Source: the human T2T-CHM13v2.0 reference genome, Homo sapiens. From it: a DNA stretch of 64,000 nt. This document shows, piece after piece, positions 6,869 to 46,262 of this stretch (position 1 is the first letter of the stretch; every line of letters begins with the position of its first letter). The stretch lies in NCBI RefSeq assembly GCF_009914755.1, contig NC_060926.1; one strand, 5' to 3'. The notes below the pieces were generated by a model. It saw only the letters and a program-made list of their open reading frames with translations, was not told the origin of the DNA and searched no databases. Both the position numbers and the translations under genes were made by a program.

Positions 6869-7021
6869 TTTACAGAAACTGTCTAGAATATTCATACATT
6901 TTCTATGAGATCCTTATCTTTCATAGTATTTTAAACACCCTGCTAGTTAGTATTCAGTCAGCTGAAATCCCCAAAACCTTGAAATCCCCCACATCTTCAC
7001 TTCAGTTAAAACTGATGTTTA

Positions 7022-7535
7022 GTCATGAAGTCTTTGCCCATGCCTGTGTCCTGAATGGTATTGCCTAGGTTTTCTTCTAGAATTTTTTATGGCTTTAGGT
7101 CTTACGTTTAAGTCTTTAGTCCATGTTGAGTTAATTTTTGTATAAGGTGTAAGGAAAATGTCCAGTTTCAGTTTTCTTCATGTGGCTAGCCAGTTTTCCC
7201 AATGCCATTTATTAAATAGGGAATCCTTTCCCCATTGCTTGTTTTTGTCAGATTTGTCAAAGGTCAGATGGTTGTAGATGTGTGGTGTTATTTCTGAGGC
7301 CTCTGTTCCATTCCATTGGTCTGTATATCTGTTTTGGTACCAATACCATGCTGTTTTGGTTACTGTAGCCTTGTAGCATAGTGTGAAATCAGGTAGTGTG
7401 ATGCCTCCAGCTTTGTTATTTTTGCTTAGGATTGTCTTGGCTATATGGGATCTTTTTTGGTTCCATATGAAATTTAAAGTAGTTTTCTCTAATTCTGTGA
7501 AGAAAGTCAATGGTAGCTTGACGAGAATAGTATTG
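7022..7535 (-). mobile_element. Inverted 5' segment of twin-primed L1PA (L1PA7-like), ORF2 fragment
   Basis: ORF 7178-7510(-) [19 protein letters not shown]...[10 protein letters not shown] is L1 ORF2; left TSD AAAACTGATGTTTA at 7008-7021. Confidence 0.95.
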
Positions 7536-8739
7536 AAACACCAAAAGCAATCGCAACAAAAGCCAAAATTGACAAATGGGATATAATTAAACTAAAGAGC
7601 TTCTGCACAGTTAAAGAAACTATCATCAGAGTGAACAGGCAACCTACAGAATGGGAGAAAATTTTTGCAATCTATCCATCTGATAAAGGTCTAGTATCCA
7701 GAATCTACAAGGAATTTTAACAAATTTACAAGAAAAAAATAACCGCATCAAAAAGTAGACAAAGAATATGAACAGACACTTCTCAAAATAAGACATTTAT
7801 ACAGTCAAAAACATGAAAAAATCTCATCATCACTGGTCATCAGAGAAATGCAAATCAAAACCACAATGAGGTACCATCTCACACCAGTTAGAATGGTGAT
7901 CATTAAAAAGTCAGGAAACAACAGATGCTGGAGAGGATGTGGAGAAATAGCAATGCTTTTACACTGTTGTTGGGAGTGTAAATTAGTTCAACCATTGTGG
8001 AAGACAGCGTGGTGATTCCTCAGGGACCTAGAACCAGAAATACCTTTTGACCCAGCAATCCCATTACTGGGTATTTACCAAAAGGATTACAAATCATTTT
8101 CTGTCTCCCTCCCACTCACTCCTCTTCAACTACACCCACATGTTCTGGGCAGAGGAAAAAGAACATGTAAAATCCCTGAGGAAGACAGTGTGGCAATCCC
8201 TCAAGAATCTAGAACCAGAAATACCAGTTGACCCAGCAATCCCATTACTGGGTATATACCCAAAGGATTATAAATCATTCTACTATAAAGATACATGCAC
8301 ACATATGTTTATTGCAGAACTGTTCACACTAGCAAAGACTGGGAACCAACCCAAATGCCCATTGATAGACTGGATAAAGAAAATATGGCACGTATATACC
8401 ATGGAATACTATGCAGCCATAAAAAGGGATGAGTTCATGTACTTTGCAGGGACATGGATGAAGCTGGAAACCATCATTCTCAGCAAACTAACACAGGAAC
8501 AGAAAACCAAACACCACATGTTCTCACTCATAAGTGGGAGTTGAACAGTGAGAATACATGGACACAGGGAGGGGAACATCACACACTGGGGCCTGTCAGG
8601 GGTTGGCAGGCAAGGGGAGGGATAGCATTAGGAGAAATACCTAATGTAGATGATGGATTGATGGGTGCAGCAAACCACCATGGCACGTGTATACCTACGT
8701 AACAAACCTGCACATTCTGCACATGTATCAGAACTTAAT
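7536..8739 (+). mobile_element. Non-inverted 3' segment of the same L1PA7-like element, with internal 86-bp foreign insert and 100-bp duplication
   Basis: ORF2 C-terminus (...HHMFSLISGS*), 3'UTR, short A tail; right TSD AAACCTGATGTTTA at 8740-8753. Confidence 0.95.
8094..8179 (+). repeat. 86-bp copy of 45275-45360 (L2-derived flank) embedded in L1
   Basis: Ungapped alignment, 80/86 identical, same junction to L1 (TGA|GGAAGACAGTGTGG). Confidence 0.97.
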
Positions 8740-8753
8740 AAACCTGATGTTTA

Positions 8754-9116
8754 AAACTGAGCCCAAAGAAGTAGAGAGTAGAACTGTGGTAGTTAGAGGA
8801 TAGGAGGTGTAGGGACAAAGAGAAGCTAGAGAGAGGTTGGTTAAGGGATACAAAGTTACAGCTAGATGGAAGAAATAAATTCTAGTGTTCTGCAGCACAG
8901 TGGAATGAATATGGTCAACAATAATTTAGTATATATTTTTACAAAACTAGAGAAGAGGATTTTGAATGTTCACAGTATCAATAAATGATACACGTATGAG
9001 GTGATGGATATGCTAATAATTCTGATTTTATTACATATTATAACACATATGAAATATTCTGTATTCCATAATTATGTACAATTATTACGTGTCAACTGAA
9101 AATGAAATGTAAAAAA
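8754..9116 (+). mobile_element. L1MA 3' end fragment
   Basis: 'gaagtagagagtagaa', 'acaaagttacagctagat', 'gaggtgatggatatgctaat', A-rich tail. Confidence 0.85.
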
Positions 9117-27744: not shown

Positions 27745-28538
27745 CTATTTTTAACATTTATTTTAGGTTCAGGTGTTCATGTGCAGGTTTGTTATACAGG
27801 CAAATTGCATGTTATGGGGGTTCGGTGTGCAGAGTATTTCATCACCAGGTAAAGAGCATAGTACTGGATAGGTAGTTTTTTGATTATCTCCCTCCCCACA
27901 CCGAGGGCCTAGTGTCTATTGTTCCCCTCTCTGTATCCTTATGTTCTCACTGTTTAGCTCCCACTTGTAAGTGAGAACGTGCTGTAATTGGTATTCTTTC
28001 CCTGCATTTAGTTCACTTAGGCTGATGGCCTCCAGCTCCATCCATGTTCCTGTAAAGGACGTGATCTCATTCTTTTTTATGGCCAGATAGTATTCTATAG
28101 TGTATATGTACCATATTTTCTTTATATAGGCTACTATTGATGGGCATTCAGGTTGATTCCATGTCTTTGCTGTTGTGAATAGTGCTGCAGTGAACATCCA
28201 CATGCATATGTCTTTATAGTAGAACAATTTATATTCCTTTGGGTATATACTCAATAATGGGATTGCTGGGTTGAATGGTAATTGTGTTTTAAGTTCTTTG
28301 AAGAATTGCCATACTGCTTTCCACAACGGCTGAACTAATTTACATTCCCACCAGCAGTGTAAGCATTCCCTTTTCTTCACAATCTCACCAGCAGCTGTTA
28401 TGTTTGACTTTTTTAGTAATAGTCATTCTGACTGGTGTGAGATGATGTCTCACTGTGGTTTTGATCTGCATTTCTGTAACGATTAGTGATGTTGAGTATT
28501 TTTTTCATATACTTGTTGGCCACGCGTATGTCTTCTTC
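27745..28538 (-). mobile_element. L1PA15/L1PB-like 3' fragment
   Basis: ORF 27916-28380(-) [18 protein letters not shown]...MELEAI is the ORF2 C-terminus; followed by 3'UTR. Confidence 0.93.
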
Positions 28539-31479: not shown

Positions 31480-34220
31480 GTCCAACAGAGGCACACCCAG
31501 ATTCATAAAAGAAGTTCTTACAGACCTGCAAAGAGACTTAGACTCCCACACAAGAATACTAGGGGATGTCAACACCACACTGACAATATTAGATCATTGA
31601 GACAGAAAGTTAACAAAGATATTCAGGACTTGAACTCAGCTCTGGATCAAGTGGACTTGATAGATATCTACGGAACTCTCCACCCCAAAACAACAGAATA
31701 TACATTCTTCTCATTGCCACATACACTTACTCTAAAATTGATCACATAATCAGAAGTAAAACACTCCTCAGTAAATGCAAAGAAAAAAATACTGAAATCA
31801 TAACAGTCCCTCAGATCACAGCACAATCAAATTATAATTCAAGATTAAGAAACTCAAAACCACACAACTACGTGGAAATTGAACAACCTTCTCCTGAGTG
31901 AATCTTGGGTAAATAATAAAATGAAGTTGGCAATCAATAAGTTCTTTGAAACAAATGAGAACAATGAAACAATGTACCAGAATCTCTGTGACACAGCTAA
32001 AGCAGTGTTAAGAGGGAAATATATAGCACTAAATGCCCACATCAAAAAGCTAGAAAGATCTCAAATCAGCAACCTAATGTGACAACTAAAGGAACTAGAG
32101 AACCAAGAGCAAACCCCAAAACTAGCAGAAGGCAAGAAATAACCAAAATCAGAGTGGAACTGAAGAAGATAGAGACACAAAAAACCCTTCAAAAAATCAA
32201 GAAATCCAGGAGCTGGTTTTCTGAAAGAATAAAATAGATAGACTGTTAGCTAGACTAATAAAAAAGAGATAAGAATCAACTAGACAAGATCAGAAATGGT
32301 AAGGGGGGATAGCACCACTGACCTCACAGAAATACAAACCATCAGATAATACTACAAACGCCTCTATGCATATAAACTAGAAAATCTAGAAGAAATTGAT
32401 TAATTCCAGGACACATACACCTTCCCATGACTGAACCAGAAAGAAATTGAGTCCCTGAACAGACCAATAGTGAGCTCTGAAAATGAGTCAGTAATAAATT
32501 GCCTACCAACAAAAGAAAGCTCAGGAATGGATGGATTCACAGCTGAATTCTACCAGATGTATAAAAAGAGCTGGTACTATTCCTACTAAAACTATTCCAA
32601 AAAACTGAGGAGTAAGGACTCCTCTCTAACTCATTCTACGAGGCTGGCATCATCCTGATACCATGACTTGGCAGAGTCACAACAAAAAAAGAAAACTGCA
32701 GACGAATATCTTTGATGAACATCAATGCAAAAATCCTCAACAAAATACTGGCAAACTGAATCCAGCAGCACATCAAAAAGCTTATCCAGCATGATTGAGT
32801 AGGCTTTATCCCTGGGATGCAAGGTTGGTTCAACATACACAAATCAATCAATGTGATTCATGACATAAACAGAACTAAAGACAAAATCACATGATTTTCT
32901 CAATAGATGCAGAAAAGCCTTGGATAAAATTAAACATTCCTTCATGTTAAAAACTCTCAATAAACTAGGAATTGAAGGAACATACCACAAATAAAAGGAA
33001 CCATCCATGACAATCCCATAAGCAGCATCATACTGAGAACAAAAGCTGGAAGCATTCTTCTTGAAAACCTGCACAAGACAAGGATGCCTTGTATCATCAC
33101 TTCTATTCAACATAGTACTAGAAGTCCTGGCCGGAATAATCAGGCAAGAGAAGGAAAGAAAGGGCATCCAAATAGGAAGAAAGGAAGTCAAACTATCCCT
33201 GTTTGCAGATGACATGATCCTTTATTTAGAAAACCCAAGAGTCTTGGCCTCAAAGCTCCTTAAGCTGATAAGAACTTCAGCAAAGTCTCAGGATACAAAA
33301 TCAATGTACAAAAATCACTAGCCATTCCTATACACTAACAACAGTCAAGGTGAGGGCCAAAACAGGAATGCAATCCCATTCACAATTGCCCCCCAAAAGA
33401 ATAAAATACCTAGGAGTACATATAACCAGGGAGGTGAAAGAGCTCTACAAGGAGAACTACAAAACACTGCTCGAAGAAATCAGAGATGACACAAACAAAT
33501 GGGAAAACATTCCGTGCTCATGGATAGGAAGTATCAGTATCAAAATGACCACACTCCACAAAACAATTTATAGGTTCAATGCTATTCTTAGTAAACTACC
33601 AATGACATTCTTCACAGAATTAGAAAAGACTATTTAAAAATTCATATGGAACCAAAATAGAGTCCAAATAACAAAGGCAATCTTAAGCAAAAAGAACAAA
33701 GCTTGAGGCATCATGCTACCTAGATGAAATAACCAAAACAGCATGGTACTGTTACAAAAGCAGACACATGCATGAATGGAACAGACTAGAGATCCAGAAA
33801 TACGGCCATACACCTACAACTATCTTCAAAAAACCTGACAAAAACAAGCAATGGGGAAAGGACTTTCTAATCCATAAATGGTGCTGGGAAATTTCCCAGC
33901 TAGTCAGTTACTAGCCATATGCAGAAGATTAAAACTGGACCCCTTTCTTACACCATATACAAAAATCAACTCATGGTGGATTAAAGACTTAAATGTAAAA
34001 AAAATAAAAATCCTGGAAGACAACCTAGGCAATATCCTTCTGGTCATAGGAATGGGTAAAGATTTCATGACAAAGATGCCAAAAGCAAATTGCAACAAAA
34101 GCAAATTTGACAAATGGAATTAAATTAAAGAACTTTGGCACAGCAAGAGAAACTGTCAACAGAGTAAACAGACAACTACAGAATGGGAGAAAATTTTTGA
34201 AAATTATGCATCTGGCAAAG

Positions 34221-35292: not shown

Positions 35293-36349
35293 GCAAAGGT
35301 CTAATATCCAGCATCTATAAGGAACTTTAACAAATTTACAAGAGAAAAACAACCCCACTAAAAAGTGAGCAAAGGACATGAACAGGCAGTTTTCAAAAGA
35401 AGACATACATGCGGCCAACAAGCATATTTTTAAAAGCTCAGTATCACTAATCAGTAGAGAAATACAAATCAAAACCACAGTGAGCTACCATCTCACACCA
35501 GCCAGAATAGCTATTATTAAAAATAACAGATCTGTCAAAAAATAACAGATATTGGTAAGGTTGAGGAGAAAAAGGAAGGCTTATATGCTGTTCATGGGAG
35601 TGTGAATTAGTTCAGCCATTGTGGAAAACAGTGTGGTTATTCCTCAAAGACCTAGAAACAGAACTACCTTTCGACCCAGCAATCCCATTACTGGGTATAG
35701 CCAAAGGAATAGAAATTGTTCTGTCATAAAGACATGTGCATGTATATGTTCACTGCAGCACTATTCACAATAGCAAAGAGATAGAACCAACCCAAATGTC
35801 CTTCAGTGGTAGACTTGATAGAGAAAACCTGGTAAATATACACCATGGAACACTATGCAGCCACAAAAAAGAGTGAGATCATATTCTTTGCAGATACATG
35901 GATGGAGCTGGAGGCCATTATCCTTAGCAAACTAATGCAGGAACAGAAAACCAAATACTGCATGTTGTTACTTATAAGTGGGAGCTAAATATGGAGAACA
36001 TATGGGCACAAAGAGGAAAATAATAGAAACTGGAGCCTATTTGAGGGTGGGGGGAGGGAGCAGGGAGAGGATCAGGAAAAGTAACTGTTGTGTACTAGGC
36101 TTAATATCTGGGCAATGAAGTAATCTGTACAAATCCCCATGACATGAGTTTACCTATATAAGAAGCCTTCACAAGTATCCCTGAAATTAAAAGTTAATGG
36201 AAAAAGAAAAAGATCTCTTTTTCTTGTTAAGATTGTATACTGAAAAATATAAGATATTTTGTAAAACTTTAAGATATTTGATAAGATAATTTAATAAAGT
36301 GGCTGTGTATAATAGAAACATACCAAAAACCCCCATATTTTCCCTCTAG

Positions 36350-41902: not shown

Positions 41903-41918
41903 AAAGCACTCCCTGATA

Positions 41919-42105
41919 GGGGAACATCATACACTGGGGCCTGTCGGGGGTTGGGGGGCTAGGGGAAGGATAGCATTAGGAGAAATACCTGATGTAGATG
42001 ATGGGTTGATGGGTGCAGCAAACCACCGTGGCACATTTATACCTATGTAACAAACCTGCATGTTCTGTACATATATCCCAGAACTTAAAGTATAATTTTT
42101 TAAAA
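41919..42105 (+). mobile_element. Very short L1PA7-like 3' end
   Basis: 3'UTR G-rich tract and 'gaacttaaagtataat'; TSD AAAGCACTC(CC/TT)TGATA at 41903-41918 and 42106-42121. Confidence 0.93.
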
Positions 42106-43799: not shown

Positions 43800-45189
43800 G
43801 TGCTTGACACATCATTGGTACTATACATGTATATCTATATGTATTTATGTGCATACACAGAGGCATATATACCTCAAAGGAATCAGTGGGGGTTGCATAT
43901 TGTTATATTGGAATATTGCATTCCTAAAAGGAAAATAGAGAATTTATATCTCTGAAAGAAAAATATTCGAACAGGGAAAGGTGGCTTACTCAGTACCTGA
44001 ACCTGTCCCTGTGAGTTTGACATTCTCCATGGGCTTAGATGCCCATTATTCCTAGATGGGGAAGTTTTTCTTTTATCTCATAGAAAGTTCTCTATAGCCA
44101 GATGGGCAAGGAGCACAGTACCTACTCAGTTTGTTCCTCTTGTCATCCCTTTGGCACTTTTCAGGGTTCCTCTGAAGAACTTTAAAGTTTTTGAAGACTT
44201 TCAAATACATTATTTCATCTAAGCCCCACAGTCCTTTTGAAGTAGGTAGTGGAGAAGCTAAAACTAATGTATGTGGCTGGCTAGTTACCAACATCCCCCC
44301 CGAGAGGCATTGCCTTCTGAGTTCATCACAGCCCAAGGTCTGACCCCTCTGTGTTACAGATTTAGAAAACAGACACTGTCAGTTTTCCAGAGCTGTACTG
44401 GACTTACACATGCTGGTTCACATCAACTAAATCTGCAGGAGAATAAAGTGTAGAACCCAGAAAGCCGATGCTGTAATTTATAGAGAAATATACCTTTCCA
44501 GCACACCAGAACATTCTCTCCCTGTAGAAAAACATCCTGGGAAGTTCGATTATCAGAAGGTAGCTCACGAGCATGGAATCAGAATGACGATAGTGGACTG
44601 GATAACTCGTATGTTTCAAGGCATCAGCCTCTGATGGTCTGATAGATCTGTCCTCAACAATAAGGAGAACTGGACACATTCACATCATTTTATCTTCCTA
44701 GGACGCTTTGTTCTCCAGTCAGTGCTGGAGGCGTGCTGATAATTTATGCCTTCTGTTCTCTTATACCCCTTGCTGATTGATTCATTTTCTGATTCTTTCT
44801 TGAGATATGTGATTTTTATCATATATAGTAACAGCCAGATTATTTTCCTTCCTGCTTCTGGCATAGGGAACAATTTTCCTTTCCCGAGGTGTTTTTCATA
44901 TAGAAGAGATTTCATGTGATATGTGCCAGATTTAAGGTTTAACTCTTAGCTTTTAGGAATGCATTGTTCTCACCTCTGCCTTCAGACAGTGCTGTCCTCA
45001 TTTTACAAAATGGAAAATAGGCTCAGGGATGTTAATAATGTGGTTCGTGTAAGGAAGCCTGATGTTTACTTGCCTTTGATATTTTTTGTTTATTTTTTGG
45101 ATTAAAGTAAAATGTTCTTCTTGCTACTGTATTATACTATATTACATCTGTCCTCTTAAAATTTAAATACTTTTTAAAAAATTCAAGAC

Positions 45190-46262
45190 AGCATTATATT
45201 AATACTCTACCAATTTTTTTTTTACTTGACCTACAAAATATAGTAGAATCTGCCTCTTAGCTATACTTCTGACTTCATATTCTTTCTCTCTCCTACTCAC
45301 TCCTCTTCAGCTACACCCACATGTTCTGGGCAGAGGAAAAAGAACATGTAAAATCACTGAGGAAGACAGTGTGGCGATTCCCCAGGAATCTAGAACCAGA
45401 AATACCGTTTGACCCAGCAATCCCATTACTGGGTATATACCCAAAGGATTATAAATCATTCTACCATAAAGACACATGCACGTGTATGTTTATTGCAGCA
45501 CTATTCACAATAGCAAAGACTTGGAACCAACCCAAATGCCCATCAATGATAGACTGGATAAAGAAAATGTGTCACATATACACCATGGAATACTATACAG
45601 CCATAAAAAAGGATGAGTTCATGTCCTTTGCAGGGACATGGATGAAGCTGGAAACCATCATCCTCAGCAAACTAACACAGGAACAGAAAACCAAACACCA
45701 CATCTTCTGAGTCATAAGTGGGAGTTGAACAATGAGAATACATGGACACAGGGAGGGGAACATCACACATTGGAGCTTGTCGAGGGCTGGGGCTTAGGGG
45801 AGGGATAGCATTAGGAGAAATACCTAACGTAGATGACGGGTTGATGGGTGCAGCAAACCACCATGGCACGTGTATACGTATGTAACAAACCTGCAGGTTC
45901 TGCACATGTATCCCAGAACTTAAAGTGTAATAATAAAAAAAATTATTTTTCTTCTGCCAAGAATGTTCTTCCCTCAGATGTACCCTTTGTTCCATCCCTT
46001 CAGTTCATTCAGAACTCCACCCACATTCAATTCAATCTGACATTAGACCACTATCATCCTCTTTCTCACTACCACACTTTTCTTCATAGAATTTAACACT
46101 GTTATTATGTGTCCTTGAAATATTGTATGTTTATTTTGTGTTTATTGTCTCATTCTCCTACTGGAATATAACCTTCAAAGGAGCTCTCTTTGTTTTATTC
46201 ACTGCTGTATCCTCAGTCTTTTAAACAACCCCATCACATTGGACTATTGTGGAATAAAGAAC
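45190..46262 (+). mobile_element. L2 3' region, interrupted and rearranged by L1
   Basis: 'actcactcctcttcagctacac', 'tctgccaagaatgttcttccctcagat', 'gtttattgtctcattctcctactggaatataac', 'ttcactgctgtatcctcag'. Confidence 0.8.
45361..45942 (+). mobile_element. 5'-truncated L1PA7-like element without direct TSD
   Basis: ORF2 C-terminus (KTVWRF...EQKTKH), 3'UTR, A tail. Confidence 0.96.

What the first reader, a model, noticed from the sequence alone, without database searches (positions are those of the whole stretch)
7999..8279. L1 carries a templated copy of another L1's 5' junction located 37 kb away
Seen: L1 sequence runs to ...AAATCATT (8098), switches to 86 bp of non-L1 DNA (8094-8179), then restarts 100 bp earlier in L1, so 7999-8098 is repeated at 8180-8279. 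The insert is 80/86 identical, ungapped, to 45275-45360, the flank of the L1 at 45361, and joins L1 at the same base (TGA|GGAAGAC). The left junction has TCAT microhomology. At 45.3 kb the segment is continuous with its L2 host, so that locus is the donor. The L1 portions at 8180+ and 45361+ share 'gaatctag' and 'gagaatacatgg', which differ from the consensus as I recall it. Inference: a break in the upstream L1 was repaired by one-sided invasion of the neighbouring L1, synthesis ran past its truncation point into flank, and the ends rejoined by microhomology. An alternative is reverse-transcriptase template switching between a local read-through RNA and L1 RNA. Both outer TSDs survive, so nothing else was rearranged.
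Basis: partly seen in the sequence, partly recalled or inferred. Interest (0 to 1): 0.85.

Follow-up and report, generated by a model that had tools for sequence, protein, structure and literature searches.

The report
L1 patched from neighbouring L1's flank
An old L1 retrotransposon carries a patch copied from a second L1 37 kb away, including 86 bp of that neighbour's unique flank, which is a clear but functionless scar of template-copying repair of a kind already known.

Summary
7999-8098 is repeated at 8180-8279 (88/100). The 86 bp between them match 45275-45360 at 80/86 without gaps, and both join L1 at the same base. The whole T2T genome holds only these two copies. The 8.1-kb element is one twin-primed L1 insertion between 14/15-identical target-site duplications. 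The 45.3-kb locus is the donor: there the 86 bp adjoin unique DNA and a naturally 5'-truncated L1 with its canonical 3' end and A-tail. The 8.1-kb L1 lacks that end, so it cannot be the RNA source.

Best reading: the right-hand L1 end primed DNA synthesis on the neighbouring L1. Synthesis ran over the truncation point into the flank, and the ends closed at TCAT.

Not supported: sizing a conversion tract. The two "shared variants" also occur in unrelated copies (2/29 and 7/29), and the L1 parts are no closer to each other than to unrelated copies. Patch divergence (12/186) gives roughly 40-100% of the L1s' age, so a later break and an insertion-time event cannot be separated. An RT template switch remains a rival. 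Continuity with an L2 host could not be tested. Ordinary in kind, neat as an example.

The parts
7007..7021 (+). Left target-site duplication of the composite L1 (TAAAACTGATGTTTA)
   Evidence: 14/15 match to 8739-8753. It sits at a TT|AAAA-like site read directly.
7022..7535 (-). Inverted 5' segment of the L1 (ORF2 region), the twin-priming arm
   Evidence: its reverse complement maps to comparator positions about 176-680, directly upstream of where the direct segment starts (about 679-685).
7536..8098 (+). Direct L1 segment ending ...AAATCATT. Its last 100 bases (7999-8098, D1) are the first copy of the duplicated stretch.
   Evidence: maps to comparator about 680-1250. (non-CpG divergence 6.8% from the majority of 23 comparators).
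8094..8179 (+). Foreign 86-bp stretch X. The first 4-5 bases, TCAT(T), are shared with L1 as junction microhomology. X holds a 9-bp internal palindrome at 8138-8146 / 8160-8168.
   Evidence: 80/86 to 45275-45360. (only two copies in the genome). (no Rfam family, all E > 1).
8180..8279 (+). D2, the second copy of the 100-bp L1 stretch. It must have been copied together with X because it carries the donor's X|L1 junction.
   Evidence: 94/100 to 45361-45460, 88/100 to D1. (3 private sites in D2, 3 in the donor, 1 shared).
8280..8738 (+). Rest of the L1 3' part, ending ...GAACTTAA with no A-tail and without the last ~10 L1 bases
   Evidence: Origin (own element or donor) not decidable.
8739..8753 (+). 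Right target-site duplication (TAAACCTGATGTTTA)
45275..45360 (+). Donor copy of X: unique DNA immediately 5' of a truncated L1
   Evidence: 45324-45344 is an 18/21 inverted match to 45943-45963.
45361..45942 (+). Donor L1: a 5'-truncated 3' fragment with canonical terminus and A8 tail
   Evidence: Non-CpG divergence 4.6%. No recognisable TSD.

Best explanation
This is a DNA-templated patch. The L1 at 7022-8738 arrived as one twin-primed insertion. At L1 position ...AAATCATT|CTAC the element was open, either at a later double-strand break or while its own integration intermediate was still unfinished. The 3' end of the bottom strand on the right-hand side paired with the closely related, same-orientation L1 fragment 37 kb downstream and was extended leftwards on it. 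Synthesis copied 100 bases of L1, crossed that fragment's 5' truncation point, and went 81-86 bases further into unique flank. The new end then came off and was joined to the left-hand L1 end at a TCAT microhomology. The left end still held its own copy of the 100 bases, so these are now duplicated around the captured flank. Shown: the anatomy, the two-copy uniqueness, the direction (45.3 kb is the source) and the old age. Inferred: that the template was chromosomal DNA rather than RNA, and the order of steps. The scar has no indicated function.
For: Junction anatomy: one junction is inherited whole from the donor (TGA|GGAAGAC in both) and continues into L1 homology. The other junction is a 4-base microhomology with unrelated sequence beyond it. 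This is what homology-primed one-sided copying closed by end joining predicts, and it explains the exact 100-base duplication.

Direction: at 45.3 kb X adjoins unique sequence and a truncated L1 that keeps the canonical terminus and A-tail. The 8.1-kb L1 ends at ...GAACTTAA directly against its TSD (the terminus motif is in 27 of 53 comparators). The 45.3-kb copy therefore cannot be a retrocopy of the 8.1-kb one. X also has an 18/21 inverted match to the DNA right after the 45.3-kb A-tail, reached by 3 of 1254 null windows, which ties X to that locus.

No third copy in the genome.

Proximity: the donor is the only L1 above 80% identity covering the duplicated stretch in the 64-kb window, while the first look found 7308-8995 candidate L1 matches genome-wide. 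A nearby template is expected for strand invasion. It is not expected for a free RNA: 2 x 37 kb out of 3.1 Gb is about 2e-5, my arithmetic.

Whole insertion intact: TSD 14/15.

Precedent seen in passages: Sen et al. 2007 (PMC1920257) read a three-piece L1 (their NCLI34) as a truncated/inverted insertion followed by intrachromosomal gene conversion. They also cite cell-culture repair of a break in a LINE by conversion from endogenous LINEs.
Against: Nothing in the sequence proves a DNA rather than an RNA template.

No conversion tract boundary is visible. R8 versus R45 differences are 6/86 in X and 6/100 in D2 (all six in its first 48 bases). My hand tally from the table gives about 42 substitutions in 446 bases beyond D2, 13 of them within the 15 bases 8598-8612. 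The rate in the patch is therefore not clearly lower than in the rest.

Only 2 shared non-majority sites exist, and both are also seen in unrelated copies.

Patch divergence (12/186 = 6.5%) is close to the summed private divergence of the two L1s (4.7% + 4.6% non-CpG). The event may therefore be as old as the insertion itself, which would fit an insertion-time process equally well.

The donor L1 has no recognisable TSD, so I could not show independently that X lies outside the donor's own insertion.

The left flank's L2 identity was not verifiable.
Confidence: 0.62

Rival explanations
1. Reverse-transcriptase template switch at insertion time. A read-through transcript of the 45.3-kb locus (sense to LINC01317, ending at the L1 fragment's own 3' end) served as first template. 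Reverse transcription ran through the L1 fragment and 86 bases of flank, then jumped by TCAT microhomology into an L1 RNA 100 bases downstream of the truncation point. The rest, including the twin-primed inversion, was copied from that RNA.
For: The whole composite lies inside one TSD pair and already shows one insertion-time complication, twin priming. Patch divergence is compatible with the age of the L1s. Both L1s are in the sense orientation of the annotated lncRNA (hub annotation). Template switching by the L1 enzyme onto other RNAs is documented (passages in PMC1920257; abstract and section 13 of PMC13174262).
Against: A free RNA would have had to integrate within 37 kb of its own source, about 2e-5 by chance. 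The switch would be internal-to-internal rather than from a template's 5' end onto an acceptor's 3' end, as in U6-type chimeras (recalled). The element has no A-tail. The right part shares no donor-specific variants beyond 2 that are common in the family. Law and Burns found unique-RNA chimeras mostly with near-full-length L1 and gene 5' exons (section 13), unlike this case.
Confidence: 0.2
2. The direction is reversed, or both derive from a third source. X was first inserted in the 8.1-kb L1 and then copied to 45.3 kb, or both loci are copies of a lost X-L1 source.
For: The donor L1 has no recognisable TSD at either candidate 5' boundary, so X is not proven to be outside an insertion there.
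Against: The 8.1-kb L1 lacks the canonical terminus and tail that the 45.3-kb copy has, which excludes an RNA route from 8.1 to 45.3. X would have no origin, since there are only two copies in the genome. The L1 restart at exactly the truncation base is natural only at 45.3 kb. X is related by an inverted match to the 45.3-kb right flank.
Confidence: 0.06
3. Assembly artefact or chance resemblance.
For: None found.
Against: 80/86 ungapped with 6 differences, plus a shared junction base. The two copies differ, so reads were not collapsed. The T2T assembly is the source (hub annotation).
Confidence: 0.01

Closest known systems
One-sided invasion / coupled homologous and end-joining repair of a double-strand break (SDSA that copies past the end of homology). 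References: Belmaaza and Chartrand 1994 and Nassif et al. 1994 (seen only in a reference list), and Tremblay, Jasin and Chartrand 2000 for breaks in LINEs (seen only as cited; paper not held).
   Same: One junction lies in homology and the other at microhomology. Non-homologous donor flank is copied into the recipient. The donor is unchanged. A repeat family provides the homology.
   Different: This is a natural, fixed, tens-of-millions-of-years-old germline example rather than an induced break in cultured cells. The donor is a neighbour 37 kb away in cis. Whether the break was independent of L1 integration is unknown.
Internal L1 rearrangement by intrachromosomal gene conversion (locus NCLI34 of Sen et al. 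2007, PMC1920257; passage read)
   Same: A truncated/inverted L1 with a foreign middle segment whose best match lies downstream on the same chromosome.
   Different: There the middle segment was L1 sequence of 377 bp at 98% identity. Here the segment includes unique non-L1 flank, which fixes the donor and the direction of synthesis unambiguously.
Chimeric L1 retrocopies by template switching and 5' transductions (Law and Burns 2026, PMC13174262; abstract and section 13 read)
   Same: Unique sequence fused 5' of an L1 3' part, inside one TSD pair.
   Different: The unique piece here sits in the middle of an L1 with a 100-base L1 duplication. Its source is an unspliced flank of a 580-bp L1 fragment 37 kb away. 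There is no A-tail.
Twin priming (Ostertag and Kazazian 2001, recalled; discussed in PMC2837659, listing only)
   Same: The inverted 5' arm is colinear with the direct arm with a 0-1 base gap, and TSDs are present.
   Different: Twin priming explains only 7022-8098. It does not explain X or the duplication.

Membership tests
Ectopic templated repair (one-sided invasion / SDSA closed by microhomology joining) | Recipient carries a copy of donor sequence that includes donor-specific non-homologous flank | tested here: met
   80/86 ungapped; only two copies in the genome
Ectopic templated repair (one-sided invasion / SDSA closed by microhomology joining) | One junction lies within homology shared by donor and recipient | tested here: met
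   The X|L1 junction is identical at both loci and continues in L1, 94/100 over D2
Ectopic templated repair (one-sided invasion / SDSA closed by microhomology joining) | Other junction non-homologous or microhomologous | tested here: met
   TCAT is shared; sequences to its left are unrelated
Ectopic templated repair (one-sided invasion / SDSA closed by microhomology joining) | A pre-event state of the recipient without the patch existed | not testable with these tools
   No primate orthologues are held here.
Twin-primed L1 insertion | Inverted 5' arm and direct 3' arm colinear in L1 coordinates, flanked by TSDs | tested here: met
Twin-primed L1 insertion | Poly(A) tail at the 3' end | tested here: not met
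   The element ends ...GAACTTAA directly at the TSD
RT template-switch chimera (U6-L1 type) | Chimera enclosed by one TSD pair, with an A-tail | tested here: inconclusive
   TSD pair present; A-tail absent
RT template-switch chimera (U6-L1 type) | 5' partner is another RNA joined at or near its 3' end, with its source unlinked to the insertion site | tested here: not met
   The 5' partner is L1 entered internally, and the source of the 3' partner lies 37 kb away
   No repeat library is available. Non-CpG divergence from the column majority is 4.6-6.8%, and the best genome copies are 91-93% identical. This fits an L1PA of mid age only by recalled rates.

The most novel reading that the evidence does not exclude
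The patch was made while the 8.1-kb L1 was being inserted. The nascent L1 cDNA (or the L1 enzyme itself) left its RNA and copied the neighbouring locus, either its chromosomal DNA or a nascent read-through RNA of the same lncRNA gene, across the truncated L1 into flank. It then returned to the L1 RNA by 4-base microhomology and finished with twin priming. That would be a fossil record of an L1 integration intermediate sampling templates in its three-dimensional neighbourhood.
Probability: 0.3. Interest if true: 0.55.

Novelty: new member of a known kind. Interest (0 to 1): 0.3.

Why it matters
The captured flank makes this a rare natural case in which donor, recipient, direction of synthesis and both junctions of an ectopic repeat-to-repeat copying event can be read off directly. 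It illustrates that dispersed L1 fragments serve as repair templates for one another in the germline, and that such repair can move unique DNA. It is a good teaching or benchmark example for pipelines that call 'nested' or 'chimeric' L1s. A masker sees two L1 pieces with an 86-bp gap and would miss it. It does not point to a new mechanism or to any function.

Tried and rejected
(1) Sizing a conversion tract from shared variants. Only 2 shared non-majority sites (8206, 8555) were found against 33 and 27 private ones with 29 comparators. The 33 is inflated by about 8 by a misaligned 2-base deletion at the 3' end. Both shared sites occur in other copies.

(2) Looking for subfamily haplotypes that would separate the right part from the donor. 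The polymorphic columns among 53 comparators are mostly decayed CpG pairs with no clear linkage, and the comparators were chosen by similarity to the two queries, which biases this test.

(3) Age contrast between left and right parts. 7528-8098 is 6.8% from the majority, above all 23 comparators (maximum 5.4%), against 4.7% for 8180-8745. By my estimate 38/558 against 26/550 is not significant (no test was run).

(4) An unbiased comparator set chosen on the left part.

(5) Testing continuity with L2. The whole-genome search with the right flank gave one paralogue (L066), which covers only the distal part. nhmmer over the window plus 59 fetched loci found no other copy. The left flank found only itself and X.

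(6) TSD of the donor L1. No repeat of 9 or more bases with at most 1 mismatch ends near 45274 or 45360; only A/T-rich low-complexity hits further upstream.

(7) X as a small RNA. The Rfam best hit is E = 1.9, far below gathering scores.

(8) A direct-orientation similarity of X to 46050-46087 was not significant (17 of 200 shuffles reach it).

Tremblay 2000 and Gilbert 2005 are not held.

(10) The first full-length MAFFT run timed out. It was repeated with faster settings and then restricted to 23 comparators that span all segments. 30 of the 53 comparators were dropped there for not covering at least 470 bases of the inverted arm and at least 550 bases of the direct arm.

Full report
WHAT IS THERE

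- 7999-8098 is repeated at 8180-8279 (88/100).
- The 86 bases 8094-8179 match 45275-45360 at 80/86 without gaps.
- The sequence to the left of the shared TCAT is unrelated at the two loci.
- Both copies run into L1 at the same base (...TGA|GGAAGACAG).

Searches of the whole assembly with 8080-8200 and with 45180-45360 each returned two first-look candidates and two matches, which are these two loci. This is not a propagated subfamily.

THE 8.1-KB ELEMENT IS ONE INSERTION

A 15-base target-site duplication, 14/15 identical, lies at 7007-7021 and 8739-8753.

I compared the element with intact L1 copies fetched from the genome: 53 after removing own loci and duplicates, of which 30 carry all three segments.
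- The reverse complement of 7022-7535 maps directly upstream of 7536-8098, with a 0-1 base gap.
- 7528-8098 ends at comparator position 1250, while 8180-8740 begins at 1151.

So the element is a classical twin-primed L1 whose direct arm is interrupted by X plus a 100-base restart. Its 3' end is unusual. It stops at ...GAACTTAA directly against the TSD, without an A-tail and without the terminal ...AGTATAAT that comparators and the 45.3-kb copy carry (27 of 53 comparators match the terminus motif I used).

WHICH LOCUS IS THE SOURCE

At 45.3 kb, X is followed by a 5'-truncated L1 fragment with the canonical terminus and an A8 tail, and is preceded by sequence found nowhere else.

The 8.1-kb element never had that terminus, so the 45.3-kb copy cannot be a retrocopy of it. 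At 8.1 kb, X is foreign, lying between two copies of the same L1 stretch.

X is also tied to the 45.3-kb site. 45324-45344 is an 18/21 inverted match to 45943-45963, the first bases after the A-tail. Only 3 of 1254 null 100-base windows (both strands) of this window score as high against X (2 of 200 shuffles).

The right flank looks like an L2 3' end from recall and found one paralogue. The left flank found nothing, and no repeat library is available. The donor L1 also shows no recognisable TSD at either candidate boundary. A third, lost source therefore cannot be formally excluded, but nothing supports it.

ARE THE L1 PARTS SPECIALLY RELATED?

No.
- 8180-8745 versus 45361-45935 is 92.2% identical over aligned bases.
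- Unrelated copies elsewhere in the genome are 92-93% identical to either one, among the 40 scored of 7308 and 7722 candidates.
- Against the column majority of 29 comparators, the two share only two non-majority bases: 8206 A (also in 2/29) and 8555 T (also in 7/29). They have 33 and 27 private ones. About 8 of the 33 come from a misaligned 2-base deletion near the end.
With more comparators they are seen in 4/23 and 12/53 copies.
- Most polymorphic columns are decayed CpG pairs.

A conversion tract therefore cannot be sized. The evidence that L1 sequence was co-copied is the inherited junction itself and the logic of the duplication.

AGE

- X differs at 6/86 and D2 at 6/100. Together that is 12/186 = 6.5% between the two copies.
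- The two L1 right parts are 4.7% and 4.6% from the comparator majority at non-CpG sites. The left arms are 5.6% and 6.8%.
- A simple Poisson comparison (my arithmetic, not a tool result) puts the event at roughly 40-100% of the L1s' residence time. With the recalled rate of about 0.17% per Myr per lineage, that is of the order of 10-30 Myr.

The event is thus old and should be shared by apes at least. It is not distinguishable from the time of insertion.

MECHANISM

The anatomy fits copying primed in homology and finished by microhomology.

1. The right-hand L1 end (bottom strand 3' end, at or to the right of the ...AAATCATT|CTAC position) pairs with the neighbouring L1.
2. It is extended leftwards through 100 bases of L1.
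3. It crosses the neighbour's truncation point and copies 81-86 bases of flank.
4. It is released and joins the left-hand end at TCAT.

The base after TCAT differs (T versus A). This could be a later change, polymerase error, or a join one base further on.

The left end cannot have been the invader, since extension from it would copy only L1.

I favour a DNA template because the donor is a cis neighbour 37 kb away and the only close L1 homologue of the stretch in the window. For a free RNA, landing that close to its source is about 2e-5 by chance, while thousands of other L1s were available. Proximity is what strand invasion favours; that preference is from general knowledge, not tested here.

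Two sub-versions remain open. One is a later double-strand break. The other is an excursion of the nascent cDNA onto the neighbouring L1 during integration, followed by return to the RNA.

The rival is a reverse-transcriptase switch from a read-through RNA of the 45.3-kb locus (sense to LINC01317) into L1 RNA. It is compatible with the single TSD pair and with the age, but it needs the proximity coincidence and an internal-to-internal switch.

COMPARISON WITH WHAT IS KNOWN

Repair of a break in a LINE by conversion from endogenous LINEs was shown in mouse cells by Tremblay, Jasin and Chartrand 2000. I saw this only as cited and summarised in PMC3924843, PMC1920257 and PMC7407515; the paper itself is not held.

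One-sided invasion and copying of non-homologous sequence from ectopic sites are classical (Belmaaza and Chartrand 1994; Nassif et al. 1994). I saw these in a reference list only, and their content is recalled.

Sen et al. 2007 interpret their locus NCLI34 as a truncated/inverted L1 later modified by intrachromosomal gene conversion (passage read).

Law and Burns 2026 catalogue L1 chimeras with unique RNAs. These mostly involve near-full-length L1 and gene 5' exons joined at splice sites (abstract and section 13 read), which is unlike this case.

I did not search specifically for prior description of this locus. My five literature searches were on mechanisms, so I make no claim that it is unpublished.

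VERDICT

It over-reads the two shared variants and the L2 continuity. The finding is a clean example of a known repair outcome with no indicated function, so interest is modest.

Noticed in passing
8725-8753: The 8.1-kb L1 has a 15-bp TSD at a TT|AAAA-like site but no A-tail, and it lacks the last ~10 bases of L1 (it ends ...GAACTTAA). This looks like internal priming on the TTAAAG near the 3' end rather than on a poly(A) tail.
   Followed up: partly
45324-45344 and 45943-45963: An 18/21 inverted repeat brackets the 45.3-kb L1. Without the L1, the site would be a hairpin with a 16-base loop, and the L1 sits exactly at the foot of the right arm. No TSD was found for this L1, so it may be an atypical (target-altering or endonuclease-independent) insertion.
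   Followed up: partly
45319-45327 / 45341-45349 (and 8138-8146 / 8160-8168): X contains a perfect 9-bp palindrome pair (ACATGTTCT ... AGAACATGT) around a 13-base loop. It is conserved in both copies. No Rfam family matches.
   Followed up: partly
8023 and 45385: D1 and the donor L1 share a G where D2 and all 23 comparators have A. Under the copying model this needs two independent A-to-G changes; it is a single site.
   Followed up: no
7528-8098: The direct left arm is more diverged from the comparator majority (6.8% non-CpG) than any of the 23 comparators (maximum 5.4%) and than the right part (4.7%). By my estimate this is not significant on its own (no test was run), but it would fit the left and right parts having different histories.
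   Followed up: partly
27904-28504 (-), 34079-34220, 35295-36086, 41918-42088: Other L1 fragments in the window: two old ones at 76-79% identity to the composite, a 142-base piece at 82%, and a 171-base 3' end at 89%. None covers the duplicated stretch at high identity.
   Followed up: no
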